IMG/VR virus record: IMGVR_UViG_3300045747_000505
Direction: 5' to 3' (one strand)
Source: a virus
Lineage: Duplodnaviria; Caudoviricetes
DNA: 64,000 nt
A model generated the notes under the pieces. It had not been told where the DNA came from. It did no database searches and was given only the letters and a program-made list of their open reading frames with translations. The position numbers and the translations under genes are program-made. Positions 1,382 through 8,151 of this stretch are shown here, piece by piece; the stretch's first letter is position 1; the number at the start of each line of letters is the position of its first letter.

Positions 1382-1843
1382 ATGACAACCCAACCTAAAG
1401 ATGACGCTGGCTACGAGAAGCGGTCCCGCGCAGGCCTGATCCCATTCATTCGTGATGGGCACGCCGGTGCGATTCAGTATCTCATGATGGTCAGCTCTGA
1501 CCCGAAGTTCGGCGGGCCTCGCCCGATGATCTCGAAGGGCAAGATCGAAGACGGTGAAACGCCAATCGAGGCGGCGAAGCGTGAGGCCGAGGAAGAGCTT
1601 GGCTTTCGCATGCGCAACTCGCGTGGCCTACCATGCCTCGTGTTCGACGGGCGTCAAGAGCTGTACTCAGGCGCCTATCACCTCACGGTGTATGGTGTCG
1701 AGGTTCAAAGTCGCTGGGACTTTGACAAGTGGTGTGACGAGACAGAGTACACCGTGTGGATGTCGTTGGAGGACTTCAAACAGAAAGGCCGGCGTGACCA
1801 CGTGAAGTTCGTGGAGACGCTGGAGCAAATGGTGACGCAATGA
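1382..1843 (+). CDS. NUDIX hydrolase
   Basis: Canonical NUDIX box GKIEDGETPIEAAKREAEEELG (GX5EX7REUXEEXG). Confidence 0.92.
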   Translation: MTTQPKDDAGYEKRSRAGLIPFIRDGHAGAIQYLMMVSSDPKFGGPRPMISKGKIEDGETPIEAAKREAEEELGFRMRNSRGLPCLVFDGRQELYSGAYHLTVYGVEVQSRWDFDKWCDETEYTVWMSLEDFKQKGRRDHVKFVETLEQMVTQ

Positions 1844-2436
1844 GCCGAATACTCTCGCTAGACTCGCAAGGCACGCCGAACGAGTGGATCTCACATCAGG
1901 ACGCAATCGTCTATCACGCAAAGTCGCTGGTTGCTTGGCAGCTCGGCGAGGGTGAAGGGGACGTGCTGTTCCGTGGTGGCGACAATCGTATCACTGGCCA
2001 GCAGTCACGCATCGTCACGGCGCCGATCATCGCCATCAAGGGCAAGGCGGCTGCGTCCAAGCGTCAGAAGCCACCGTCGCTGACGAACCCATCGCTGTTT
2101 CAGCGTGACGCTCACATCTGCGCCTACTGTGGCGACAAGTTCAGGTTTGACGACCTGACGCGTGACCACGTGGTTCCGACGTCGCGTGGTGGTCGAGACA
2201 TCTGGACGAACGTCGTCACCGCGTGCTCGCCGTGCAACAACGTCAAGGACAACCGAATGCTCGACGAGTGCGGCATGAAGTTGCTCTACGTTCCGTACGC
2301 ACCGAACCTGGCCGAAGCGCTGATCCTCAGCGGTCGCAACATTCTGGCTTGCCAGATGGAGTATCTCCTCGCCTTCATTCCGAAGGACTCACGAGTCCTC
2401 ACGCAACTGAGGGCTGATCAGGTACGTCTCCACTAG
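1840..2436 (+). CDS. HNH endonuclease (McrA-like)
   Basis: CAYCG...LTRDHVVPTSRGG..WTNVVTACSPCNNVK zinc-finger/HNH signature; ATGA coupling to NUDIX. Confidence 0.9.
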   Translation: MSRILSLDSQGTPNEWISHQDAIVYHAKSLVAWQLGEGEGDVLFRGGDNRITGQQSRIVTAPIIAIKGKAAASKRQKPPSLTNPSLFQRDAHICAYCGDKFRFDDLTRDHVVPTSRGGRDIWTNVVTACSPCNNVKDNRMLDECGMKLLYVPYAPNLAEALILSGRNILACQMEYLLAFIPKDSRVLTQLRADQVRLH

Positions 2437-2987: not shown

Positions 2988-3027
2988 TCGGAGTATCTGA
3001 AGTCTTTTCAACATCTCGCACGCCCAC

Positions 3028-3062
3028 TAGGTGGGTGAGTGAATAAATAGCTCACCCACTTA
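3028..3062 (+). promoter_or_regulatory. Hairpin with the TAAATAG late motif in its loop, adjoining the RBS of the 3073 gene
   Basis: GTGGGTGAG (3031-3039) / CTCACCCAC (3051-3059) is a perfect 9-bp stem, extendable to 12 bp and reaching the start of TAAGGA. TAAATAG sits at 3044-3050. Confidence 0.65.
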
Positions 3063-3072
3063 AGGACCAACC

Positions 3073-3462
3073 ATGACACTGCTCGCAGAACTCCTCGACC
3101 TTCGTGAAGCCAAGGGCACCATCGTCGTCGCCAAGCTTTGGATCGGCTACATCACCGGCGAAGACGAAGAGTCGATGGCCGGCGAAGAAGCCGATCTGAA
3201 TGTCACCGTCTTCTACGACGCCAAGACGCCGGAAGCTGCTCAGGCTCTTGCTGCCAAGATGGGTGCCGATGATGTCGAGATCGATGATGGCGACTGCTAC
3301 GACGCGCTGAACCACTACGCGCAGAACGGTGCGCCGGCTCGCAAGGGCTACTCGAACCTGCACGGCCCTGCCTACGTCACCAGCGTGAAGATCGCCTCGA
3401 AGGAGCCGAAGCTTGCTCAACGCGTCTTCGCGTTCCATCCGGCTGATCTCGGCTTCGAGTAA
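3073..3462 (+). CDS. Hypothetical late protein with a possible cleavable N-terminal leader (MTLLAELLDLRE)
   Basis: RBS AAGGA, late motif upstream, phage-typical codon usage. Confidence 0.75.
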   Translation: MTLLAELLDLREAKGTIVVAKLWIGYITGEDEESMAGEEADLNVTVFYDAKTPEAAQALAAKMGADDVEIDDGDCYDALNHYAQNGAPARKGYSNLHGPAYVTSVKIASKEPKLAQRVFAFHPADLGFE

Positions 3463-3508
3463 GTCCTTTCGTTCCTGTTCAATTTTGTTTAGAGGTTGGA
3501 GAACCGCT

Positions 3509-4051
3509 GTGAATCCTATCGCCTATCTCGTGATGGCCATCTTCAACACGATCTACATCGGGCTGGCCGCATTCGGCCTGCTCTGGGTCTCGTTGTCTGG
3601 TTCGATGCTCGACGCGGTGATCGCGCTCAGTGTCGCTGCCGTCGGCTATCACCTGTCGAAGACCGCTGTGATCATGCTGCTGGCTCACTTCAACATGCCA
3701 GCGCCGATCTCAGCTGGCGCGATGCAGCGCGAGATCGACGAGCTGCTCGAGCTGTCATCGCAGCCTGACTTCAAGGTCACTCAAGAGATTGAGGACCGCA
3801 TGTTCCGAGTTGGCCTCAAGCCTGGCTACGACGTGGCTGATCGTGGTGAGCAGATCGGCACGCAGTTCGATGAGCCGATCTACGAGTGGATCGTCACGCA
3901 AGAGAGTCTGGCTGCGCCGTTGGCTCGCTACAACTACTGTGGTGCGGCTCAGCGCAACAGAGACGGTGTCGCCATCGAGGTCGATCGTGAGGACGTCGTC
4001 TGCTACAAGGGTCAGCTCTACGAGCTGGCGAAGGTCGACGAGAAAGCCTGA
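3509..4051 (+). CDS. Membrane protein (about 2-3 TM helices plus a soluble C-terminal domain)
   Basis: GGAGA RBS before GTG at 3509; hydrophobic N-terminal half. Confidence 0.7.
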   Translation: MNPIAYLVMAIFNTIYIGLAAFGLLWVSLSGSMLDAVIALSVAAVGYHLSKTAVIMLLAHFNMPAPISAGAMQREIDELLELSSQPDFKVTQEIEDRMFRVGLKPGYDVADRGEQIGTQFDEPIYEWIVTQESLAAPLARYNYCGAAQRNRDGVAIEVDREDVVCYKGQLYELAKVDEKA

Positions 4052-4085
4052 ACCTAAACAGCACCAACAACCATTCTCAAAAGTA

Positions 4086-4115
4086 GTGTACAATACACTC
4101 CTGTTCGATAAATAG
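4086..4115 (+). promoter_or_regulatory. Tandem sigma70-like -10 (TACAAT 4089-4094) and TAAATAG late motif (4109-4115) driving the ncRNA-Ro60 unit
   Basis: Both motifs recur at promoters across the window. Confidence 0.65.
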
Positions 4116-4116
4116 A

Positions 4117-4580
4117 ACTGTTGGCGAAAGCCACGCGAGCCGTCCGACCTTACAACGACGGCAAAGAACTAGTGAACCGCTAGGATTGATTATCAATGGC
4201 TGCCGCCGCAAGGCGAAAAGAGACCACTACTCGCAATATGTGGAATTCTCGATCCACCCTTCGTTCACACCCTTTCTAGGTCTTCAACTCTCATTCTGTT
4301 CAACCCAGTGCTAACCGGCTCGTCTTGGTTACCACAAGTGAAATGCGCTTAGGTACCTCTAGCTTCGGCCACGTCTTTTGCGCCGTACGTCAACTCGTTA
4401 ATTGACTAAGTCGTCGTGGCTGAAAACCACGAACGTTAGTGGGTCGAAACCACGCAGGCTATCGCGAGCCAGAAAAGAGCGATGTAGGCGAACCACTGAA
4501 GAGATTCAGCCGCCGAACTTCCGAGGCACAATTTCGTTGCCACTGGTTTGAACACCACTTTGCTGCACATCGCAGCCGTT
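4117..4580 (+). ncRNA. Putative large structured non-coding RNA (candidate Y-RNA-like Ro60 partner)
   Basis: About 480 nt with no credible ORF in an otherwise gene-dense genome. At least 12 hairpins, three with GNRA tetraloops (TGGC-GAAA-GCCA 4122-4133, CGCC-GCAA-GGCG 4204-4215, CTGAA-GAGA-TTCAG 4496-4509), plus long-range complementarity. Lies between a promoter and the Ro60 RBS. Ends are estimated. Confidence 0.6.
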
Positions 4581-4595
4581 CCAAGGAGAAACATC

Positions 4596-6221
4596 ATGTC
4601 AAACGTCTACGCAGAATTCGCATCCGCTGACTCGACTTCCAAGCAGGCTCGCCAGTCCACTTCCCCGACGCAGGTCATCCCGGGCCGTGAGGCCGACATG
4701 TCCGCCAACAACGGCGGTGGCTTCAGCTTCGTCATGACGAAGTGGGGCGTGCTCGACCGCTTCATCATGCTCGGCACCGAGAAGGCCGGCTACTACGTCG
4801 GCCAGAAGGAGCAGACGAAGCAGTCCTTCGACACCGTCAAGGCGTGTCTGAAGGAAGATGGTCTCCGCGTCGTGGCTCGCATCGTCGAGTACTCGCTGGC
4901 TGGTCGTGCTCCGAAGAATGATCCGGCCGTCGTGGCCCTGGCTCTCGCAGCCGTGTACGGTGACGACGCGACCCGCGCAGTAGCCTTCGAAGCGCTGCCG
5001 AAGGTCGCCCGTACCGGCACGTGGCTGTTCCTGTTCGTGTCGATCCTCGACTCGCTGGGCAAGTGGAACGCGGCTGCAAAGCGTGGCGTTGCCGCTTGGT
5101 ACACGACGAAGCAGGTCGACCGTCTGGCCGTTCAGCTGCTCAAGTACCAGTCCCGCAATGGCTGGGCGCACCGTGACGTTCTGCGTCTCGCGCACGTCAA
5201 GCCGTCGTCTGACGTTCAGTCGGCCCTGTTCCGCTACGCGGTGAAGGGTGCCGAGGGCATCGAGTTCGGCACGATGGTGCCGCAGCTGCTCGTCGACTTC
5301 GAGCTCTTGAAGCGCACGACCGACAAGAAGGAAGTGCTTCGCCTGATCGAGTCCAACGACTTCATCAGCTGGGAAATGGTCCCGACGCAGTGGCTGAAGG
5401 ATCCGGACGTGCTGACCCTGCTCGTCAAGAACATGGGCCTCACGGCCGTGATTCGCAAGCTGGGTGCGCTGACGGCCCATGGCGTGATCAAGCCGCTCTC
5501 GAGCGGTCTGAAGGACGTCGTGGCGAAGCTGACGGACTCCGAGCAGCTGAAGCGCCAGCGCGTTCACCCGATCACGCTGCTCCAGTCCCTGAAGCAGTAC
5601 TCGGTCGGCCACGGCGACAAGGGTTCGTTGGTCTGGGTTCCGAACCAGCGCGTCATCGATGCTCTGGACTCGGCGTTCTACGACGCGTTCACGCACGTCG
5701 AAACGAAGGGTGAGAACTACCTCATCGCGTGCGACATCTCTGGCTCGATGCAGGGTGCGAACGTCAACGGTTCTCCGAACCTCACGGCAGCTGAAGTTGC
5801 GGTGGTCATGGCGATGGTTGTTGCGCGCAAGCAGGACAACTACCACATCGTTGGCTACAACCAGCGTTTGGTCGACCTGCACGTCTCGCCGACGATGCGT
5901 CTCGACGCTGCCATGGCTTCGTACAAGAAGCAGCACTGGGACGGCGCCGGTACCGACTGCGCCAAGCCGTTCGAGGCTGCCCTCGCCAACAAGTGGCCTG
6001 TCGACAAGTTCGTCAGCATCACTGACAACGAGGTCAACTCGGGCTCGCAGCACCCGGCGCAGGCTCTGGCCAAGTACCGCAAGGGCTTGAACGCCATGGC
6101 GAAGTCGGTGGTCATCGGCACCTCGGTGTCGGAGTTCACCATCGCCGACCCGAAGGACTCCGGTTCTTTGGACATCGCAGGCTTCGACTCAGCTGCTCCG
6201 CAGCTGATCTCCGACCTGTGA
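4596..6221 (+). CDS. rsr: Ro60 / TROVE-vWA RNA-binding protein (Rsr-like)
   Basis: RBS AAGGAG at 4583-4588. TROVE motifs NNGGGFSF, LDRFIMLGTE, APKNDP, RTGTWLF, KYQSRNGWAHRDVLRLAH. vWA MIDAS DISGS, GTDC, TDNE and C-terminal DPKDSGSLDIAGFD. 541 aa, typical Ro60 length. Confidence 0.95.
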   Translation: MSNVYAEFASADSTSKQARQSTSPTQVIPGREADMSANNGGGFSFVMTKWGVLDRFIMLGTEKAGYYVGQKEQTKQSFDTVKACLKEDGLRVVARIVEYSLAGRAPKNDPAVVALALAAVYGDDATRAVAFEALPKVARTGTWLFLFVSILDSLGKWNAAAKRGVAAWYTTKQVDRLAVQLLKYQSRNGWAHRDVLRLAHVKPSSDVQSALFRYAVKGAEGIEFGTMVPQLLVDFELLKRTTDKKEVLRLIESNDFISWEMVPTQWLKDPDVLTLLVKNMGLTAVIRKLGALTAHGVIKPLSSGLKDVVAKLTDSEQLKRQRVHPITLLQSLKQYSVGHGDKGSLVWVPNQRVIDALDSAFYDAFTHVETKGENYLIACDISGSMQGANVNGSPNLTAAEVAVVMAMVVARKQDNYHIVGYNQRLVDLHVSPTMRLDAAMASYKKQHWDGAGTDCAKPFEAALANKWPVDKFVSITDNEVNSGSQHPAQALAKYRKGLNAMAKSVVIGTSVSEFTIADPKDSGSLDIAGFDSAAPQLISDL

Positions 6222-6345
6222 TACGGTTGATTCGCATGGACAAGTCGAACCGCATGGTTCGACTTGGTCTAGGCCGCAACAACGGCAAGTGGTTCGCTCG
6301 AGTGGATTTGTGGTGGGTCGGCGTTCGACTCACCCGCAACTAAGG
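6222..6345 (+). ncRNA. Putative small structured RNA or processing element downstream of Ro60
   Basis: Perfect 11-bp hairpin CAAGTCGAACC/GGTTCGACTTG (6241-6266) and a 9-bp hairpin GGTGGGTCG/CGACTCACC. Two GTTCGACT T-loop-like sequences. No U tract. Confidence 0.4.
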
Positions 6346-6352
6346 GAATCAC

Positions 6353-6979
6353 ATGAAGGTCTTCATCGGTCCGTACGTCAACTGGATTGGTCCATACCAA
6401 ATCGCTGGCTGGCTTCAGCACGTTGGCGTCAGCGAAGAGCGCTGCCACGAGCTTGGCGAGAAGCTGGCGAACACTTGGGTCAAGCCTGTCTGCGAGTGGA
6501 TTCACGGGCATCAGCACCGTAAGGTCAAGGTGAAGCTTCACCGCTACGACACGTGGAACATGGACTCCACGCTCTCACACATCGTCCTTCCAATGCTCAA
6601 GCAGCTTCACGCGACGAAGCACGGTGCGCCGTCCGTCGATGATGAGGACGTGCCTGAGCACCTTCGCTCCACCTCGGCGCCGCCGAGGGAGAACGAGTGG
6701 GACACGGACGAGAATCACTTCAAGCGCTTCGACTGGTTGCTTGAAGAGCTGATCTGGACCTTCGAGCAGCTTCACCCAGAGTGCGATGGCGAGTCGAAGT
6801 TCTTCTCTGGCGATTCAGATATTCAATTCAACAAGATTGAGGGTAGCGACCTGTACAGCATGGACCGCGGTCCGAAGGACACCTTCAAGATGGATCAAGA
6901 AGGTCTCAACGCCTACAAGGCGCGCATTCAAAAGGGTTGCGAGCTCTTCGGCAAATATTTGCAGGGATTATGGGATTGA
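6353..6979 (+). CDS. Hypothetical phage protein
   Basis: RBS AAGGGA, 208 aa, good codon usage. Resembles conserved hypotheticals of large myophages (YDTWNMDSTL motif); function unknown. Confidence 0.8.
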   Translation: MKVFIGPYVNWIGPYQIAGWLQHVGVSEERCHELGEKLANTWVKPVCEWIHGHQHRKVKVKLHRYDTWNMDSTLSHIVLPMLKQLHATKHGAPSVDDEDVPEHLRSTSAPPRENEWDTDENHFKRFDWLLEELIWTFEQLHPECDGESKFFSGDSDIQFNKIEGSDLYSMDRGPKDTFKMDQEGLNAYKARIQKGCELFGKYLQGLWD

Positions 6980-7648
6980 CTTACAGTTGTTCCCGTGATG
7001 CCTGAAAAAGTTAGGTGCCGTTGTAGAAGTAGTTCGACAATGGACGCATGATACTGGGCAAAAGCCTTTATCGTGCGTCCTATTCGGGTTTTTCTTACAC
7101 ACATCAAAATGCCACCGCAGCATAGTTCTGAGTTGACCCTGTTTTTCACAGTGTGGACATTGAACGGTTTTCGCATTTAGAGCTATGTGTGCTGGTGGCT
7201 TTGGCGGGCCAATAAATTCTTGTGCACGTCGCCCAATGGCTAACTCGCTCTCCCAGTAGGCTTTCGATCGTTGGCGGTGAAGATCTTTAGTTTCATCAGT
7301 CTGAGTCCAAGTCTTCTTGTTTCTTTGGCGAGTCGACAGACTCTTTTGAATTGCCTCTTTAGTCCTTGATGTCGGATTATCACCGCCAGTGCCTGTTTCA
7401 TTCATCAGGTTTGCCCAGTCTTTTGATTCCACAATGTTATTTGCTATAGAATACGAGGTGGCAAAAGACTTGAATTCCTCAAGAGATTCAGTTTGATAAA
7501 TCACGTCGGTGTGAGTGTGATTGCCATGAACCTTCAAATGTCGAAGCCAGTATTTGCCTGAACCAGCGTAGGTAAAAGGGTCCTTGCAGATCTTGCCAAG
7601 GTATTTCATGCCTGTGTCTAAATGCGTCTTCTTGTAGAGGTAGTACAT
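6968..7648 (-). mobile_element. Free-standing Seg-like (GIY-YIG variant) homing endonuclease
   Basis: YYLYKKTHLDTGMKYLGK...YAGSGKYW and LMNETGTGG motifs, C-terminal CPHC zinc fingers. More AT-rich, antisense insertion. Start set at ATG 7648 after AGGAGG and TAAATAG (7674-7680). Confidence 0.8.
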
Positions 7649-7908: not shown

Positions 7909-8151
7909 ATGTCATCTGTTGCAACCGCCATGAGAGATATGCGTACGACGGTCGCCGTCAACTTCGCTGCCATGGCGAAGGAGCTGCTCGAGTCCTACGA
8001 CACCGGCATTCTGCCCGACGGTCAGGTCACCGAAGCCGCTCGCTGGCTCTCACGCCAGCTCAACTACCTGCCCTACTCGCAGACGCTGTCCATCGTCGAA
8101 ACCGAAGTCCAACGCGCTTGCATGCGTGCAGCCGCCGACACCATCCGTTAA
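7909..8151 (+). CDS. Small early hypothetical protein
   Basis: RBS AGGAGA; directly downstream of an early promoter. Confidence 0.7.
   Translation: MSSVATAMRDMRTTVAVNFAAMAKELLESYDTGILPDGQVTEAARWLSRQLNYLPYSQTLSIVETEVQRACMRAAADTIR

What the first reader, a model, noticed from the sequence alone, without database searches (positions are those of the whole stretch)
4117..6221. Phage Ro60 preceded by a ~460-nt structured ncRNA: candidate new Ro60 ribonucleoprotein with a giant Y-like RNA
Seen in sequence: in a genome where genes usually overlap or sit a few bp apart, about 480 nt between tandem early/late promoter motifs (4089, 4109) and the Ro60 RBS has no credible ORF. It is packed with hairpins: 4122-4133 (GAAA), 4139-4162, 4169-4183, 4204-4215 (GCAA), 4240-4257, 4389-4406, 4415-4431, 4439-4453, 4457-4470, 4487-4514 (GAGA), 4525-4541, 4544-4557 and 4562-4576. 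It also has a pyrimidine-rich linker (41 of 54 nt, 4253-4306). Established: Ro60/Rsr proteins work with Y RNAs encoded next to the gene; characterised bacterial Y RNAs are much shorter (roughly 80-150 nt) and tether Ro60 to nucleases such as PNPase. Inference: this is a Ro60 partner RNA about 3-4 times the usual size, possibly a multi-domain scaffold or decoy used to protect or repair RNA during infection. I could not match it to any RNA class I know.
Basis: partly seen in the sequence, partly recalled or inferred. Interest (0 to 1): 0.9.

Follow-up and report, generated by a model that had tools for sequence, protein, structure and literature searches.

The report
Tandem Y-RNA-like modules before phage Ro60
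The 480-nt gap before this jumbo-phage Ro60 gene encodes a conserved structured RNA made of two Y-RNA-like stems with animal-type hallmarks (bulged C, UUAUC), the second unusually large, so it is very probably the Ro60 partner RNA.

Summary
Window 4052-4595 is non-coding and lies directly 5' of a canonical Ro60 gene (4596-6221). About 41 distinct relatives from phage and metagenome contigs carry the same RNA in the same place.

It is not one giant fold of local hairpins. It is two adjacent stem-closed modules, M1 (4164-4284) and M2 (4298-4553). Each module has:
- a closing stem;
- a lower helix with one bulged C (NAAC[C]G / UG UUN);
- an upper helix;
- a conserved UUAUC;
- an apical domain, about 190 nt with several hairpins in M2.

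All these helices covary strongly (0/10000 permutations; CM alignment 93% paired vs 65% when shuffled).

Rfam gives no hit for the window itself. A family member's M1 scores 37.0 bits against the nematode stem-bulge (Y RNA homologue) family, whose threshold is 38. A more distant phage Ro60 locus passes that threshold. YrlA (tRNA-like) features are absent.

The same module flanks many distant phage Ro60 genes on the Ro60 strand. It also sits inside tRNA arrays of related 343-368 kb phages.

Metatranscriptome contigs cover only the RNA plus Ro60. One contig is a 263-nt cycle that matches M2.

Verdict: a new variant of Y RNA. Ro60 binding is inferred, not shown.

The parts
4089..4117 (+). Promoter-like boxes: TACAAT at 4089-4094 and GATAAATAGAA at 4107-4117
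   Evidence: The second box aligns with the conserved TATAAAATAGC box that starts the conserved block in relatives. No sigma-70 consensus site was found. The transcription start is not determined.
4122..4162 (+). 5' hairpins: P1a (4122-4125/4130-4133, GAAA loop) and P1b (4139-4144/4157-4162)
   Evidence: Hairpins at the same place have different sequences in relatives. P1b examples: GCAGACC/GGUCUGC in L086, GUGGGC/GCCCAC in L013, GUAGC/GCUAC in L007. Clade 1 has a GNRA-capped hairpin here.
4164..4284 (+). Y-like module 1. Closing stem P2 is 4164-4171/4277-4284. The lower helix is 4172-4177, bulged C4178, G4179, paired with C4262 and 4263-4268. The upper helix is 4183-4189/4249-4255. UUAUC is at 4190-4194. 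Apical hairpins are 4204-4215 and 4224-4227/4240-4243.
   Evidence: 13 of 13 scored positions pair in the window. There are 21 distinct lower-helix and 27 distinct upper-helix strand pairs in the family. Cognate strands beat non-cognate ones (0/10000 permutations). P2 gives the same result (0/10000). RNAalifold found 14 pairs, 11 with compensatory changes. On the CM alignment 92.9% of cells pair, against 65% when shuffled. Model R1 aligns the window's M1 on these same helices, but at only 10 bits.
4285..4297 (+). Short pyrimidine-rich linker between the two modules
   Evidence: It lies between two independently closed stems. The cyclic metatranscriptome contig starts at 4292.
4298..4553 (+). 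Y-like module 2, the large one. Closing stem P4 is 4298-4310/4541-4553. The lower helix is 4312-4315, bulged C4316, 4317-4318, paired with 4534-4539. The upper helix is 4322-4328/4521-4527. UUACC is at 4329-4333. The apical domain is 4334-4520, with hairpins P7 4389-4406, P8 4413-4434, P9 4439-4453 (GUCGAAA loop), P10 4461-4465/4479-4483 and P11 4487-4514.
   Evidence: 12 of 13 scored positions pair. P4 is 10-24 bp long with unrelated sequences across lineages: mean cognate duplex energy is -16.8 kcal/mol against -7.7 for non-cognate pairs (0/10000). Lower and upper helices give 0/10000. RNAalifold recovers the upper helix, P9 and P10 with compensatory changes. A constrained fold gives a long stem plus a multi-hairpin apical domain.
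4562..4576 (+). 3' hairpin P12 (GCUGC ACAUC GCAGC), followed by conserved CCG
   Evidence: It is conserved as UUUGCUGN...NCAGCCG across the family, with a UA/CG exchange at the inner pair. No U-tract follows it, so it is not an intrinsic terminator.
4583..6221 (+). Shine-Dalgarno AAGGAG (4583-4588) and the Ro60 gene (ATG 4596, stop 6219-6221; 541 aa)
   Evidence: Pfam vWA_Ro60 at 5e-47 and TROVE at 4e-23. PHROG 850 RNA-binding protein. Matches to solved Ro60 structures: 9nen 9e-95, X. laevis 1yvp 5e-92, D. radiodurans Rsr 2nvo 1e-90.

Best explanation
The gap encodes two tandem Y-RNA-like modules on the transcript that also carries Ro60. They belong to a jumbo-phage lineage whose relatives have 343-368 kb genomes.

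Each module is a long stem closed by pairing of its own 5' and 3' ends. Going up the stem there is:
- a closing helix;
- a lower helix with a single bulged cytidine, 5'-NAAC[C]G(A)-3' paired with 5'-(U)U GUUN-3', the geometry of the Ro60-binding helix of animal Y RNAs;
- an asymmetric internal loop;
- an upper helix;
- an almost invariant UUAUC;
- an apical domain.

M1 (121 nt) is a normal-sized Y RNA. M2 (256 nt here, up to about 390 nt in relatives) carries an apical domain of about 190 nt. That domain is an array of hairpins with CGAA/UGAA-containing loops, several followed by RUAGG-like tails.

Inferred mechanism: each bulged-C stem binds one Ro60 ring on its outer surface. The apical domains recruit or gate other factors, for instance a host 3'-5' exoribonuclease such as PNPase, as in the bacterial RYPER complex and the phiLo phage complex. 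This would give the phage its own Ro60 RNP for handling structured or damaged RNA during infection.

The modules are probably cut out of the precursor. Sister copies in relatives sit between tRNA genes, where RNase P and RNase Z would release them.

Shown: conservation, covarying structure, linkage to Ro60, and presence in RNA libraries. Inferred: Ro60 binding, processing and effector recruitment.
For: 1. Homology. An nhmmer profile finds the RNA in about 41 distinct loci. It is always on the Ro60 strand and 5' of Ro60 orthologues of 55% identity or more. The window scores E 1.7e-54.

2. Motif. Both copies of the motif NNNNNC[C]GN...N7-8 UUAUC, with matching 3' strands, are present in 27-35 of the 41 sequences.

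3. Covariation.
- Cognate versus non-cognate strand complementarity gives 0/10000 permutations for the lower and upper helices of both modules and for closing stems P2 and P4.
- RNAalifold independently recovers the M1 helices, with 11 of 14 pairs compensatory, and the M2 upper helix.
- On the R1 alignment 92.9% of cells pair against 65% when shuffled. The covariation score is 0.586 against 0.157 (0/500). Slid controls pair at 27-49%.

4. Class.
- M1 of family member L107 aligns end to end with Rfam RF01656, the nematode sbRNAs, at 37.0 bits against a threshold of 38.
- A Y-like RNA before a more distant phage Ro60 (L045) passes that threshold at 40.1 bits.
- sbRNAs are Y RNA homologues. The vertebrate Ro60 site is a lower-stem helix with a single bulged cytidine, and UUAUC is conserved in Y RNAs and sbRNAs (PMC4726728).
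- The hY4 5' strand GGCUGGUCCGAUGGUAGUGGGUUAUC (PMC6096425) resembles the family consensus UUGGAACCGAUCGGUGAUGGUUAUC.

5. Linkage to Ro60. R1 hits 24 of 100 further phage Ro60 loci (Ro60 about 33-45% identical). Of the 32 hits, 31 are on the Ro60 strand. They lie up- or downstream of Ro60, sometimes as 2-3 tandem copies.

6. Independence from the leader position.
- In complete relatives, further R1 modules sit inside tRNA arrays, abutting tRNA genes on the same strand.
- In L021, L022, L026 and L100 a conserved gene of about 70 aa separates the RNA from Ro60.

7. Expression. In four freshwater metatranscriptomes, contigs lie only on 4078-6048 (RNA plus Ro60) and not on the flanking genes.

8. 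The protein is a canonical Ro60.
Against: - No binding data exist. Ro60 binding is inferred from architecture and linkage only.
- The window itself gives no Rfam hit, even at E<=10. Its M1 scores only 10 bits with R1.
- The best Rfam score for a family member is just under threshold (37.0 against 38).
- The resemblance to animal Y RNAs could be convergence on Ro60's binding surface.
- The 3-nt bulge on the opposite strand of the vertebrate site is replaced here by a 5-8 nt asymmetric loop. The upper-stem GUG/CAC motif is not conserved.
- There is no terminator and no demonstrated processing site between the RNA and Ro60, so a purely cis-acting role is not excluded.
- The metatranscriptome evidence is from assembled contigs of strains 90-97% alike. 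DNA carry-over cannot be ruled out, and one contig runs about 106 nt upstream of the putative promoter.
Confidence: 0.75

Rival explanations
1. Cis-acting leader. The structured region is a 5' UTR that controls Ro60 synthesis. For example, Ro60 could bind the bulged-C stems of its own mRNA and repress translation (autoregulation), without the RNA acting as a free Y RNA.
For: The RNA, the RBS and Ro60 are contiguous with no terminator between them. P12 and the conserved CAGCCG lie 7-20 nt before the SD in nearly all members. Metatranscriptome contigs X16-2 and X22-5 run linearly from M2 into the leader and the CDS.
Against: The same module occurs away from any Ro60 start. It lies downstream of Ro60 in several loci and inside tRNA arrays in complete relatives. 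In one subclade a separate conserved gene lies between the RNA and Ro60. The SD is not sequestered by any conserved helix. Autoregulation could still coexist with a trans-acting role.
Confidence: 0.12
2. A large structured RNA that works with something other than Ro60, and is merely co-located with it. It might be a sponge or decoy for a host RNA-binding protein, nuclease or defence sensor, or a scaffold for the conserved small proteins nearby.
For: The M2 apical domain is an array of 4-6 similar hairpins with CGAA/UGAA loops and RUAGG-like tails, an arrangement typical of protein-titrating RNAs. A conserved 35-aa ORF follows Ro60 and a conserved ORF of about 70 aa precedes it in some relatives.
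Against: This does not explain why the conserved core is exactly the Ro60-site geometry plus UUAUC. It does not explain why the module tracks Ro60 genes across about 33-77% protein identity, with 31 of 32 hits on the Ro60 strand. Known Y RNAs use their apical parts for second partners anyway, so this overlaps with the main explanation.
Confidence: 0.08
3. No functional RNA. The gap holds unannotated small genes or is spacer whose hairpins are chance.
For: The MFE z-score is only -0.89. Short ORFs of 42-63 aa can be drawn in the gap.
Against: The block is conserved across about 41 loci, with indels that are not multiples of three and no conserved ORF. Six helices show strong compensatory variation.
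Confidence: 0.02

Closest known systems
Animal Y RNAs and nematode stem-bulge RNAs (Rfam RF00019, RF01656)
   Same: The 5' and 3' ends pair into a lower and an upper stem. The lower stem has a single bulged C in a C[C]GA / UUG context. UUAUC follows directly after the 5' strand of the upper stem, and the apical part is variable. They partner with a Ro60 protein. A family member aligns over the whole RF01656 model at 37.0 bits (features from PMC4726728).
   Different: These RNAs are phage-encoded and co-transcribed with Ro60 or with tRNAs, rather than made as Pol III genes. Two modules sit in tandem. M2 has an apical domain of about 190 nt or more. The upper-stem GUG/CAC motif is not conserved. 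The opposite-strand 3-nt bulge is replaced by a 5-8 nt loop. The window's own copies fall below Rfam detection.
Bacterial and phage YrlA (Rfam RF02553)
   Same: It is encoded next to Ro60/rsr on the same strand, is modular (a Ro60-binding stem plus an effector domain), and often comes as two RNAs from one precursor upstream of rsr (PMC4201824).
   Different: YrlA is defined by a tRNA-like T/acceptor/D domain and a GNCGAAN0-1G motif. The positive control, phage Cali, scores 36 bits, and distant phage loci L056 and L053 score 35-39 bits. The window and 16 family loci give no YrlA hit. Only P9 (GUUG-stem-GUCGAAA-stem) loosely recalls the T arm.
Thermus phage phiLo Yrl1 and Yrl2 with phiRo60 (PMC12135203)
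   Same: Two Y-like RNAs lie upstream of a phage Ro60 gene. There, Ro60 binding and a ternary complex with host PNPase were shown, and that is the working model adopted here.
   Different: phiLo Ro60 is only distantly related to this protein (E 2e-6, against 1e-90 to 1e-95 for Rsr and vertebrate Ro60). Yrl1 and Yrl2 were defined by CGAA motifs in an internal bulge, not by a bulged-C helix plus UUAUC. No large apical domain is reported for them.
D. radiodurans Yrn1 in the RYPER complex (Ro60 / Y RNA / PNPase)
   Same: A Y RNA tethers Ro60 to an exoribonuclease through its non-Ro module. Several Y RNAs are encoded upstream of rsr (PMC4201824, PMC4726728).
   Different: No sequence or CM similarity was detected, and the effector for the phage RNA is unknown.
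Large structured phage RNAs (GOLLD, ROOL and similar)
   Same: Large size, phage origin, and proximity to tRNA genes in relatives.
   Different: No Rfam match at any threshold. The architecture here is two Y-type stems, not those folds.

Membership tests
Y RNA, animal / sbRNA type (RF00019, RF01656) | The 5' and 3' ends pair to form a lower stem that contains a single bulged cytidine (the Ro60 site) | tested here: met
   Both modules have it: C4178 and C4316 in the window. The helix flanking the bulge covaries, with 21 and 26 distinct strand pairs and 0/10000 permutations. On the CM alignment, helix 1 is 99.3% paired.
Y RNA, animal / sbRNA type (RF00019, RF01656) | An upper stem separated from the lower stem by an internal loop | tested here: met
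   The upper helices are 4183-4189/4249-4255 and 4322-4328/4521-4527. There are 27 and 25 distinct variants, with 0/10000 permutations. All 9 pairs show changes on both sides.
Y RNA, animal / sbRNA type (RF00019, RF01656) | A conserved UUAUC motif at the start of the loop domain | tested here: met
   UUAUC is at 4190-4194 and UUACC at 4329-4333. UUA[UC]C directly follows the upper-stem 5' strand in both modules of most members. GGTTATC is a near-invariant block.
Y RNA, animal / sbRNA type (RF00019, RF01656) | Scores at or above the Rfam gathering threshold | tested here: not met
   Window: no hit at E<=10. The best family member, L107 M1, scores 37.0 bits against 38. The more distant phage locus L045 scores 40.1 bits, above threshold.
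Y RNA, animal / sbRNA type (RF00019, RF01656) | Bound by Ro60 | not testable with these tools
   Only genomic linkage is available. The module is adjacent to Ro60 on its strand in about 50 loci.
Y RNA, animal / sbRNA type (RF00019, RF01656) | Size of about 100 +/- 20 nt | tested here: inconclusive
   M1 is 121 nt, with core spans of 56-141 nt in relatives, so it fits. M2 is 256 nt, with core spans of about 209-342 nt in relatives, so it does not fit.
YrlA (RF02553) | A tRNA-like domain (T arm, acceptor-like stem, D arm) detectable by the family CM | tested here: not met
   No hit in the window or in 16 family loci. The controls do hit: Cali, L056 and L053.
YrlA (RF02553) | The GNCGAAN0-1G motif in the Ro60-binding stem | tested here: inconclusive
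   The family has (G/A)ACCGA(N), with two Cs as in the animal GGUCCGA. Some members read CCGAA(N)G. The exact bacterial motif is not general.
YrlA (RF02553) | Encoded within a few kb of Ro60 on the same strand | tested here: met

The most novel reading that the evidence does not exclude
Module 2 is cut at the base of its closing stem and its ends are joined. This would give a circular (or end-joined) Y RNA of about 263 nt that resists exonucleases and serves as the working Ro60 scaffold.

The lead is one metatranscriptome contig, X5 record 7, the contig with the highest depth figure among those laid. Its last 30 nt (k-1 for k=31) repeat its first 30 nt (window 4292-4321), so it is a 263-nt cycle in the assembly graph. 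Starting at 4292, 263 nt ends at 4554, and the M2 closing stem spans 4298-4553.
Probability: 0.15. Interest if true: 0.9.

Novelty: new variant of a known kind. Interest (0 to 1): 0.72.

Why it matters
[quoted passage not shown] Here a large, well-supported family of phage RNAs next to canonical Ro60 genes carries the two animal hallmarks: the bulged-C lower stem and UUAUC. This has several consequences.

- Ro60-site geometry. The geometry of the Ro60 site is shared between animal Y RNAs and these phage RNAs. Whether by common descent or by convergence is open.
- UUAUC. UUAUC, so far linked to DNA replication in animals (PMC4726728), may have a Ro60-related role.
- Effector domains. The family supplies natural variants, from core spans of 56 nt to 342 nt, for dissecting how the effector domain of a Y RNA evolves. 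These include a multi-hairpin domain of unknown partner.
- tRNA arrays. Y-like modules embedded between tRNA genes suggest that tRNA-processing enzymes release them.
- Annotation. The family is missing from Rfam, so these RNAs are currently unannotated in jumbo-phage genomes.

Tried and rejected
- Rfam on the whole window at gathering thresholds, and on 3900-6500 at E<=10: nothing.
- Rfam on 5 family loci and 11 family loci: only the L107 sbRNA hit.
- Single-sequence folding: not better than shuffles.
- blastn of the gap against 50,697 phage records: no match. Only the Ro60 CDS weakly matched mycobacteriophages.
- Whole genome of the window: not held.
- tRNA scan of the window: none.
- MAFFT plus RNAalifold on mixed M1 sets gave no structure, because the 3' strands were misaligned by 3 nt between subclades. 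Splitting the set solved it.
- A naive all-against-all column covariation screen was dominated by G/U-rich conserved columns and was not used.
- Per-segment MFE folds were inconsistent.
- Sigma-70 promoter scan: none. Terminator scan: nothing credible between the RNA and Ro60.
- RtcB ligase (PF01139) in five related phage genomes: absent. A phage-encoded RtcB therefore cannot explain the cyclic contig; a host enzyme would be needed.
- Pfam and PHROG scans of neighbours: NUDIX, HNH and unknowns only, with no nuclease, ligase or PNPase next to the locus.
- The motif scan of the 64-kb window found no further convincing module: two marginal hits at 8130 and 22085, with 11-12 of 13 positions paired.
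- The downstream 'structured element' was rejected as RNA and reassigned to a small ORF.
- Complex prediction and structure prediction were not used; they do not address RNA binding.
Full report
**The locus**

The ORF at 4596-6221 is a canonical Ro60.
- Pfam gives vWA_Ro60 at 5e-47 and TROVE at 4e-23.
- It matches PHROG 850.
- It is about equally close to the solved Ro60 of entry 9nen, to X. laevis Ro60 and to D. radiodurans Rsr (E 1e-90 to 1e-95). It is far from the Thermus phage phiLo protein (2e-6).

The 544 nt before it (4052-4595) have lower GC and hold only short ORFs that are not conserved. There are no tRNAs and no Rfam match even at E<=10. The pyrimidine count of 41/54 for 4253-4306 is exact. 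The single-sequence MFE is not better than shuffles (z -0.89), so hairpin density alone proves nothing.

**Relatives**

No isolate phage in the 50,697-record collection matches the gap. Protein-guided scans of viral and metagenome contigs gave 160 Ro60 loci. An iterated nhmmer profile finds the upstream RNA in about 41 distinct loci.
- It is always on the Ro60 strand and 5' of Ro60 orthologues of 55% identity or more.
- The window scores E 1.7e-54.
- The conserved block begins at a TATAAAATAG-like box, which aligns with window 4107-4117, and runs to the Ro60 start.
- Related contigs include complete genomes of 343-368 kb with terminal repeats, so this is a jumbo-phage lineage.
- The runs that hold this stretch are mostly pond, wetland, lake and other freshwater metagenomes.

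**Structure**

Comparative reading of the alignments shows two adjacent modules built on one plan. The plan is:
- a closing stem;
- a lower helix 5'-NNNNC[C]G(N)-3' paired with 5'-(U)(U/C)G NNNN-3', with one bulged C;
- a 1-5 nt / 5-8 nt asymmetric loop;
- an upper helix of about 7 bp, often with a one-base bulge;
- UUA(U/C)C;
- an apical domain.

In the window the coordinates are as follows.

| Element | M1 (4164-4284) | M2 (4298-4553) |
|---|---|---|
| Closing stem | P2: 4164-4171 / 4277-4284 | P4: 4298-4310 / 4541-4553 |
| Lower helix | 4172-4177, [C4178], G4179 / C4262, 4263-4268 | 4312-4315, [C4316], 4317-4318 / 4534-4539 |
| Upper helix | 4183-4189 / 4249-4255 | 4322-4328 / 4521-4527 |
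| UUAUC motif | UUAUC 4190-4194 | UUACC 4329-4333 |

The M2 apical domain holds hairpins P7 to P11. Hairpins P1a and P1b precede M1. Hairpin P12 (4562-4576) and the SD follow M2.

Five use bases that covariation assigns to the long-range helices or to P10.

**Covariation**

- Across the family there are 21 (M1) and 26 (M2) distinct lower-helix strand pairs, and 27 and 25 distinct upper-helix strand pairs.
- Cognate 5'/3' strands pair far better than non-cognate ones. Means are 5.4 vs 3.7 and 5.5 vs 3.5 out of 6 for the lower helices, and 6.7 vs 4.5 and 6.7 vs 5.5 out of 7 for the upper helices. None of 10000 permutations reaches the cognate mean.
- The closing stems were tested with the same unbiased duplex search on cognate and non-cognate flanks. 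P2 gives -9.6 vs -6.7 kcal/mol and P4 gives -16.8 vs -7.7 kcal/mol, each 0/10000. P4 reaches 17-24 bp of unrelated sequence in several lineages.
- RNAalifold on ten short M1 sequences recovers both helices unaided, with 11 of 14 pairs compensatory. On 15 full-length sequences it recovers the M2 upper helix, P9, P10 and P12.
- A covariance model built from that alignment (R1) finds M1 in 26 family loci.
- On the R1 alignment 92.9% of cells pair, against 65.0% in shuffles. The covariation score is 0.586 against 0.157 (0/500). Slid controls pair at 27-49%. That alignment is fitted to the model, so the permutation tests and RNAalifold are the independent support.
- The window's own M1 is a weak R1 match (10 bits), but it is aligned on exactly these helices.

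**What class it is**

YrlA is excluded. Rfam's YrlA model detects the control phage Cali (36 bits) and distant phage loci L056 and L053. It detects nothing in the window or in 16 family loci.

The module is instead the animal Y RNA / nematode stem-bulge architecture.
- The literature defines the vertebrate Ro60 site as a lower-stem helix with a single bulged cytidine. It reports a conserved UUAUC in the loop of Y RNAs and sbRNAs (PMC4726728).
- All characterised Y RNAs have a long stem, formed by their 5' and 3' ends, that holds the Ro60 site (bioRxiv 10.1101/312249).
- M1 of family member L107 aligns over the full RF01656 (sbRNA) model at 37.0 bits, against a threshold of 38, with E 6e-4 in a 59-kb search.
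- The small RNA before a more distant phage Ro60 (L045) passes the threshold at 40.1 bits.
- The family's 5' strand consensus UUGGAACCGAUCGGUGAUGGUUAUC resembles hY4 CUGGUCCGAUGGUAGUGGGUUAUC (PMC6096425).

This is resemblance plus a near-threshold CM score. It is not proof of homology.

**Linkage to Ro60 and independence from the leader**

- R1 hits 24 of 100 further phage Ro60 loci (Ro60 about 33-45% identical). Of the 32 hits, 31 are on the Ro60 strand. They lie either just upstream or just downstream of Ro60, sometimes as two or three tandem copies.
- In complete relatives, additional R1 modules lie far from Ro60 inside tRNA arrays. They are on the tRNA strand and abut tRNA genes. For example, L167 1382-1466 lies between tRNA-Phe and tRNA-Leu, and L170 1750-1834 lies between tRNA-Tyr and tRNA-Leu.
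- In L021, L022, L026 and L100 a conserved gene of about 70 aa lies between the RNA and Ro60.

Together these results argue for trans-acting RNAs that are released by processing, rather than a mere translational leader.

**Expression**

Logan contigs of four freshwater metatranscriptomes, from strains 90-97% alike, lie only on 4078-6048 (RNA plus Ro60). None lies on 3000-4056 or 6171-7500.

These are contigs, so levels, ends and strand cannot be read, and DNA carry-over is possible. One contig extends about 106 nt upstream of 4078.

One contig (X5 record 7; word depth 36.5, the highest figure among the contigs laid) needs separate mention.
- It equals 4292-4488, then 66 unmatched letters, then 4292-4321 again.
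- That makes it a 263-nt cycle whose span coincides with M2 (closing stem 4298-4553).
- Contigs from other runs are linear across both boundaries.
- It could reflect a circular or end-joined M2, template switching on an abundant processed RNA, a tandem duplication in that strain, or an artefact.
- No RtcB is encoded by five related phages.

**Mechanism**

Shown: a conserved, covarying two-module RNA with Y-type stems, co-located and co-oriented with Ro60, and present in RNA libraries.

Inferred: each bulged-C stem binds a Ro60 ring. The apical domains engage other factors. This holds especially for the M2 hairpin array, with CGAA/UGAA loops and RUAGG-like tails. A host exoribonuclease is the leading candidate, by analogy with RYPER and with phiLo Yrl/PNPase (PMC4726728, PMC12135203).

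Rivals:
- an autoregulatory leader, which is compatible with the trans role and less likely as the sole role;
- a scaffold or sponge unrelated to Ro60;
- no function, which covariation refutes.

**Novelty**

Y RNAs next to phage Ro60 genes are known (PMC4201824, PMC12135203). The new points are:
- a large family, absent from Rfam, with animal-type hallmarks;
- the tandem arrangement in the Ro60 leader;
- an oversized second module with a multi-hairpin effector domain;
- sister copies embedded in tRNA arrays.

I class it as a new variant of a known kind.

Noticed in passing
window 6236-6343 (+): The gap after Ro60 is not a structured RNA. It is a conserved 35-aa ORF (MDKSNRMVRLGLGRNNGKWFARVDLWWVGVRLTRN). 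The peptide core NRMVRLGFGRNNGRWFARVDLWWVG is kept in L001, L002, L004, L012, L094, L111 and L116, in nearly all of them soon after the Ro60 stop. Nucleotide identity is 70-81%, higher than for the upstream RNA. It could be a small basic, Trp-rich partner of the Ro60 RNP.
   Followed up: partly
L167 1382-2068; L168 1950-2383; L169 1807-1889; L170 1750-1834; L171 1689-1781; L172 1707-1837: In complete related jumbo phages (343-368 kb), extra Y-like stem-bulge modules sit inside tRNA arrays. They are on the tRNA strand and mostly directly abut tRNA genes, as if released by RNase P and RNase Z.
   Followed up: partly
window 4292-4554 (metatranscriptome run X5, contig record 7): A 293-nt RNA-library contig has a last 30 nt that repeat its first 30 nt, giving a 263-nt cycle that coincides with module 2. 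Its 66 middle letters did not align to the window. The cause is unexplained.
   Followed up: partly
L021 1734-1949; L022 1512-1751; L026 1706-1945; L100 870-1016: In one subclade a conserved small gene (48-79 aa as read; motif ...LTDSQCEQWF..., Lys-rich tail) lies between the RNA and Ro60.
   Followed up: no
L045 1829-1894; L056 1836-1910; L053 1774-1905: More distant phage Ro60 loci carry either a compact sbRNA-type Y RNA (above the Rfam RF01656 threshold) or a YrlA-type RNA just upstream of Ro60, often after a tRNA array. Phage Ro60 genes therefore pair with at least two different Y RNA types.
   Followed up: partly
window 1382-2436 (+): A NUDIX hydrolase (1382-1843) and an HNH endonuclease (1840-2436) lie upstream of the locus. 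The gene after the small ORF (6353-6979) matches PHROG 11543, of unknown function.
   Followed up: no
A3 alignment, region upstream of P7 (e.g. L002 AAGG ... CCUU; L001 GAGG ... CCUC; L004 AGGG ... CCCU): A possible pseudoknot: 4 nt upstream of hairpin P7 covary with 4 nt in the P7 loop. It was seen by eye only, and it is not evident in the window.
   Followed up: no
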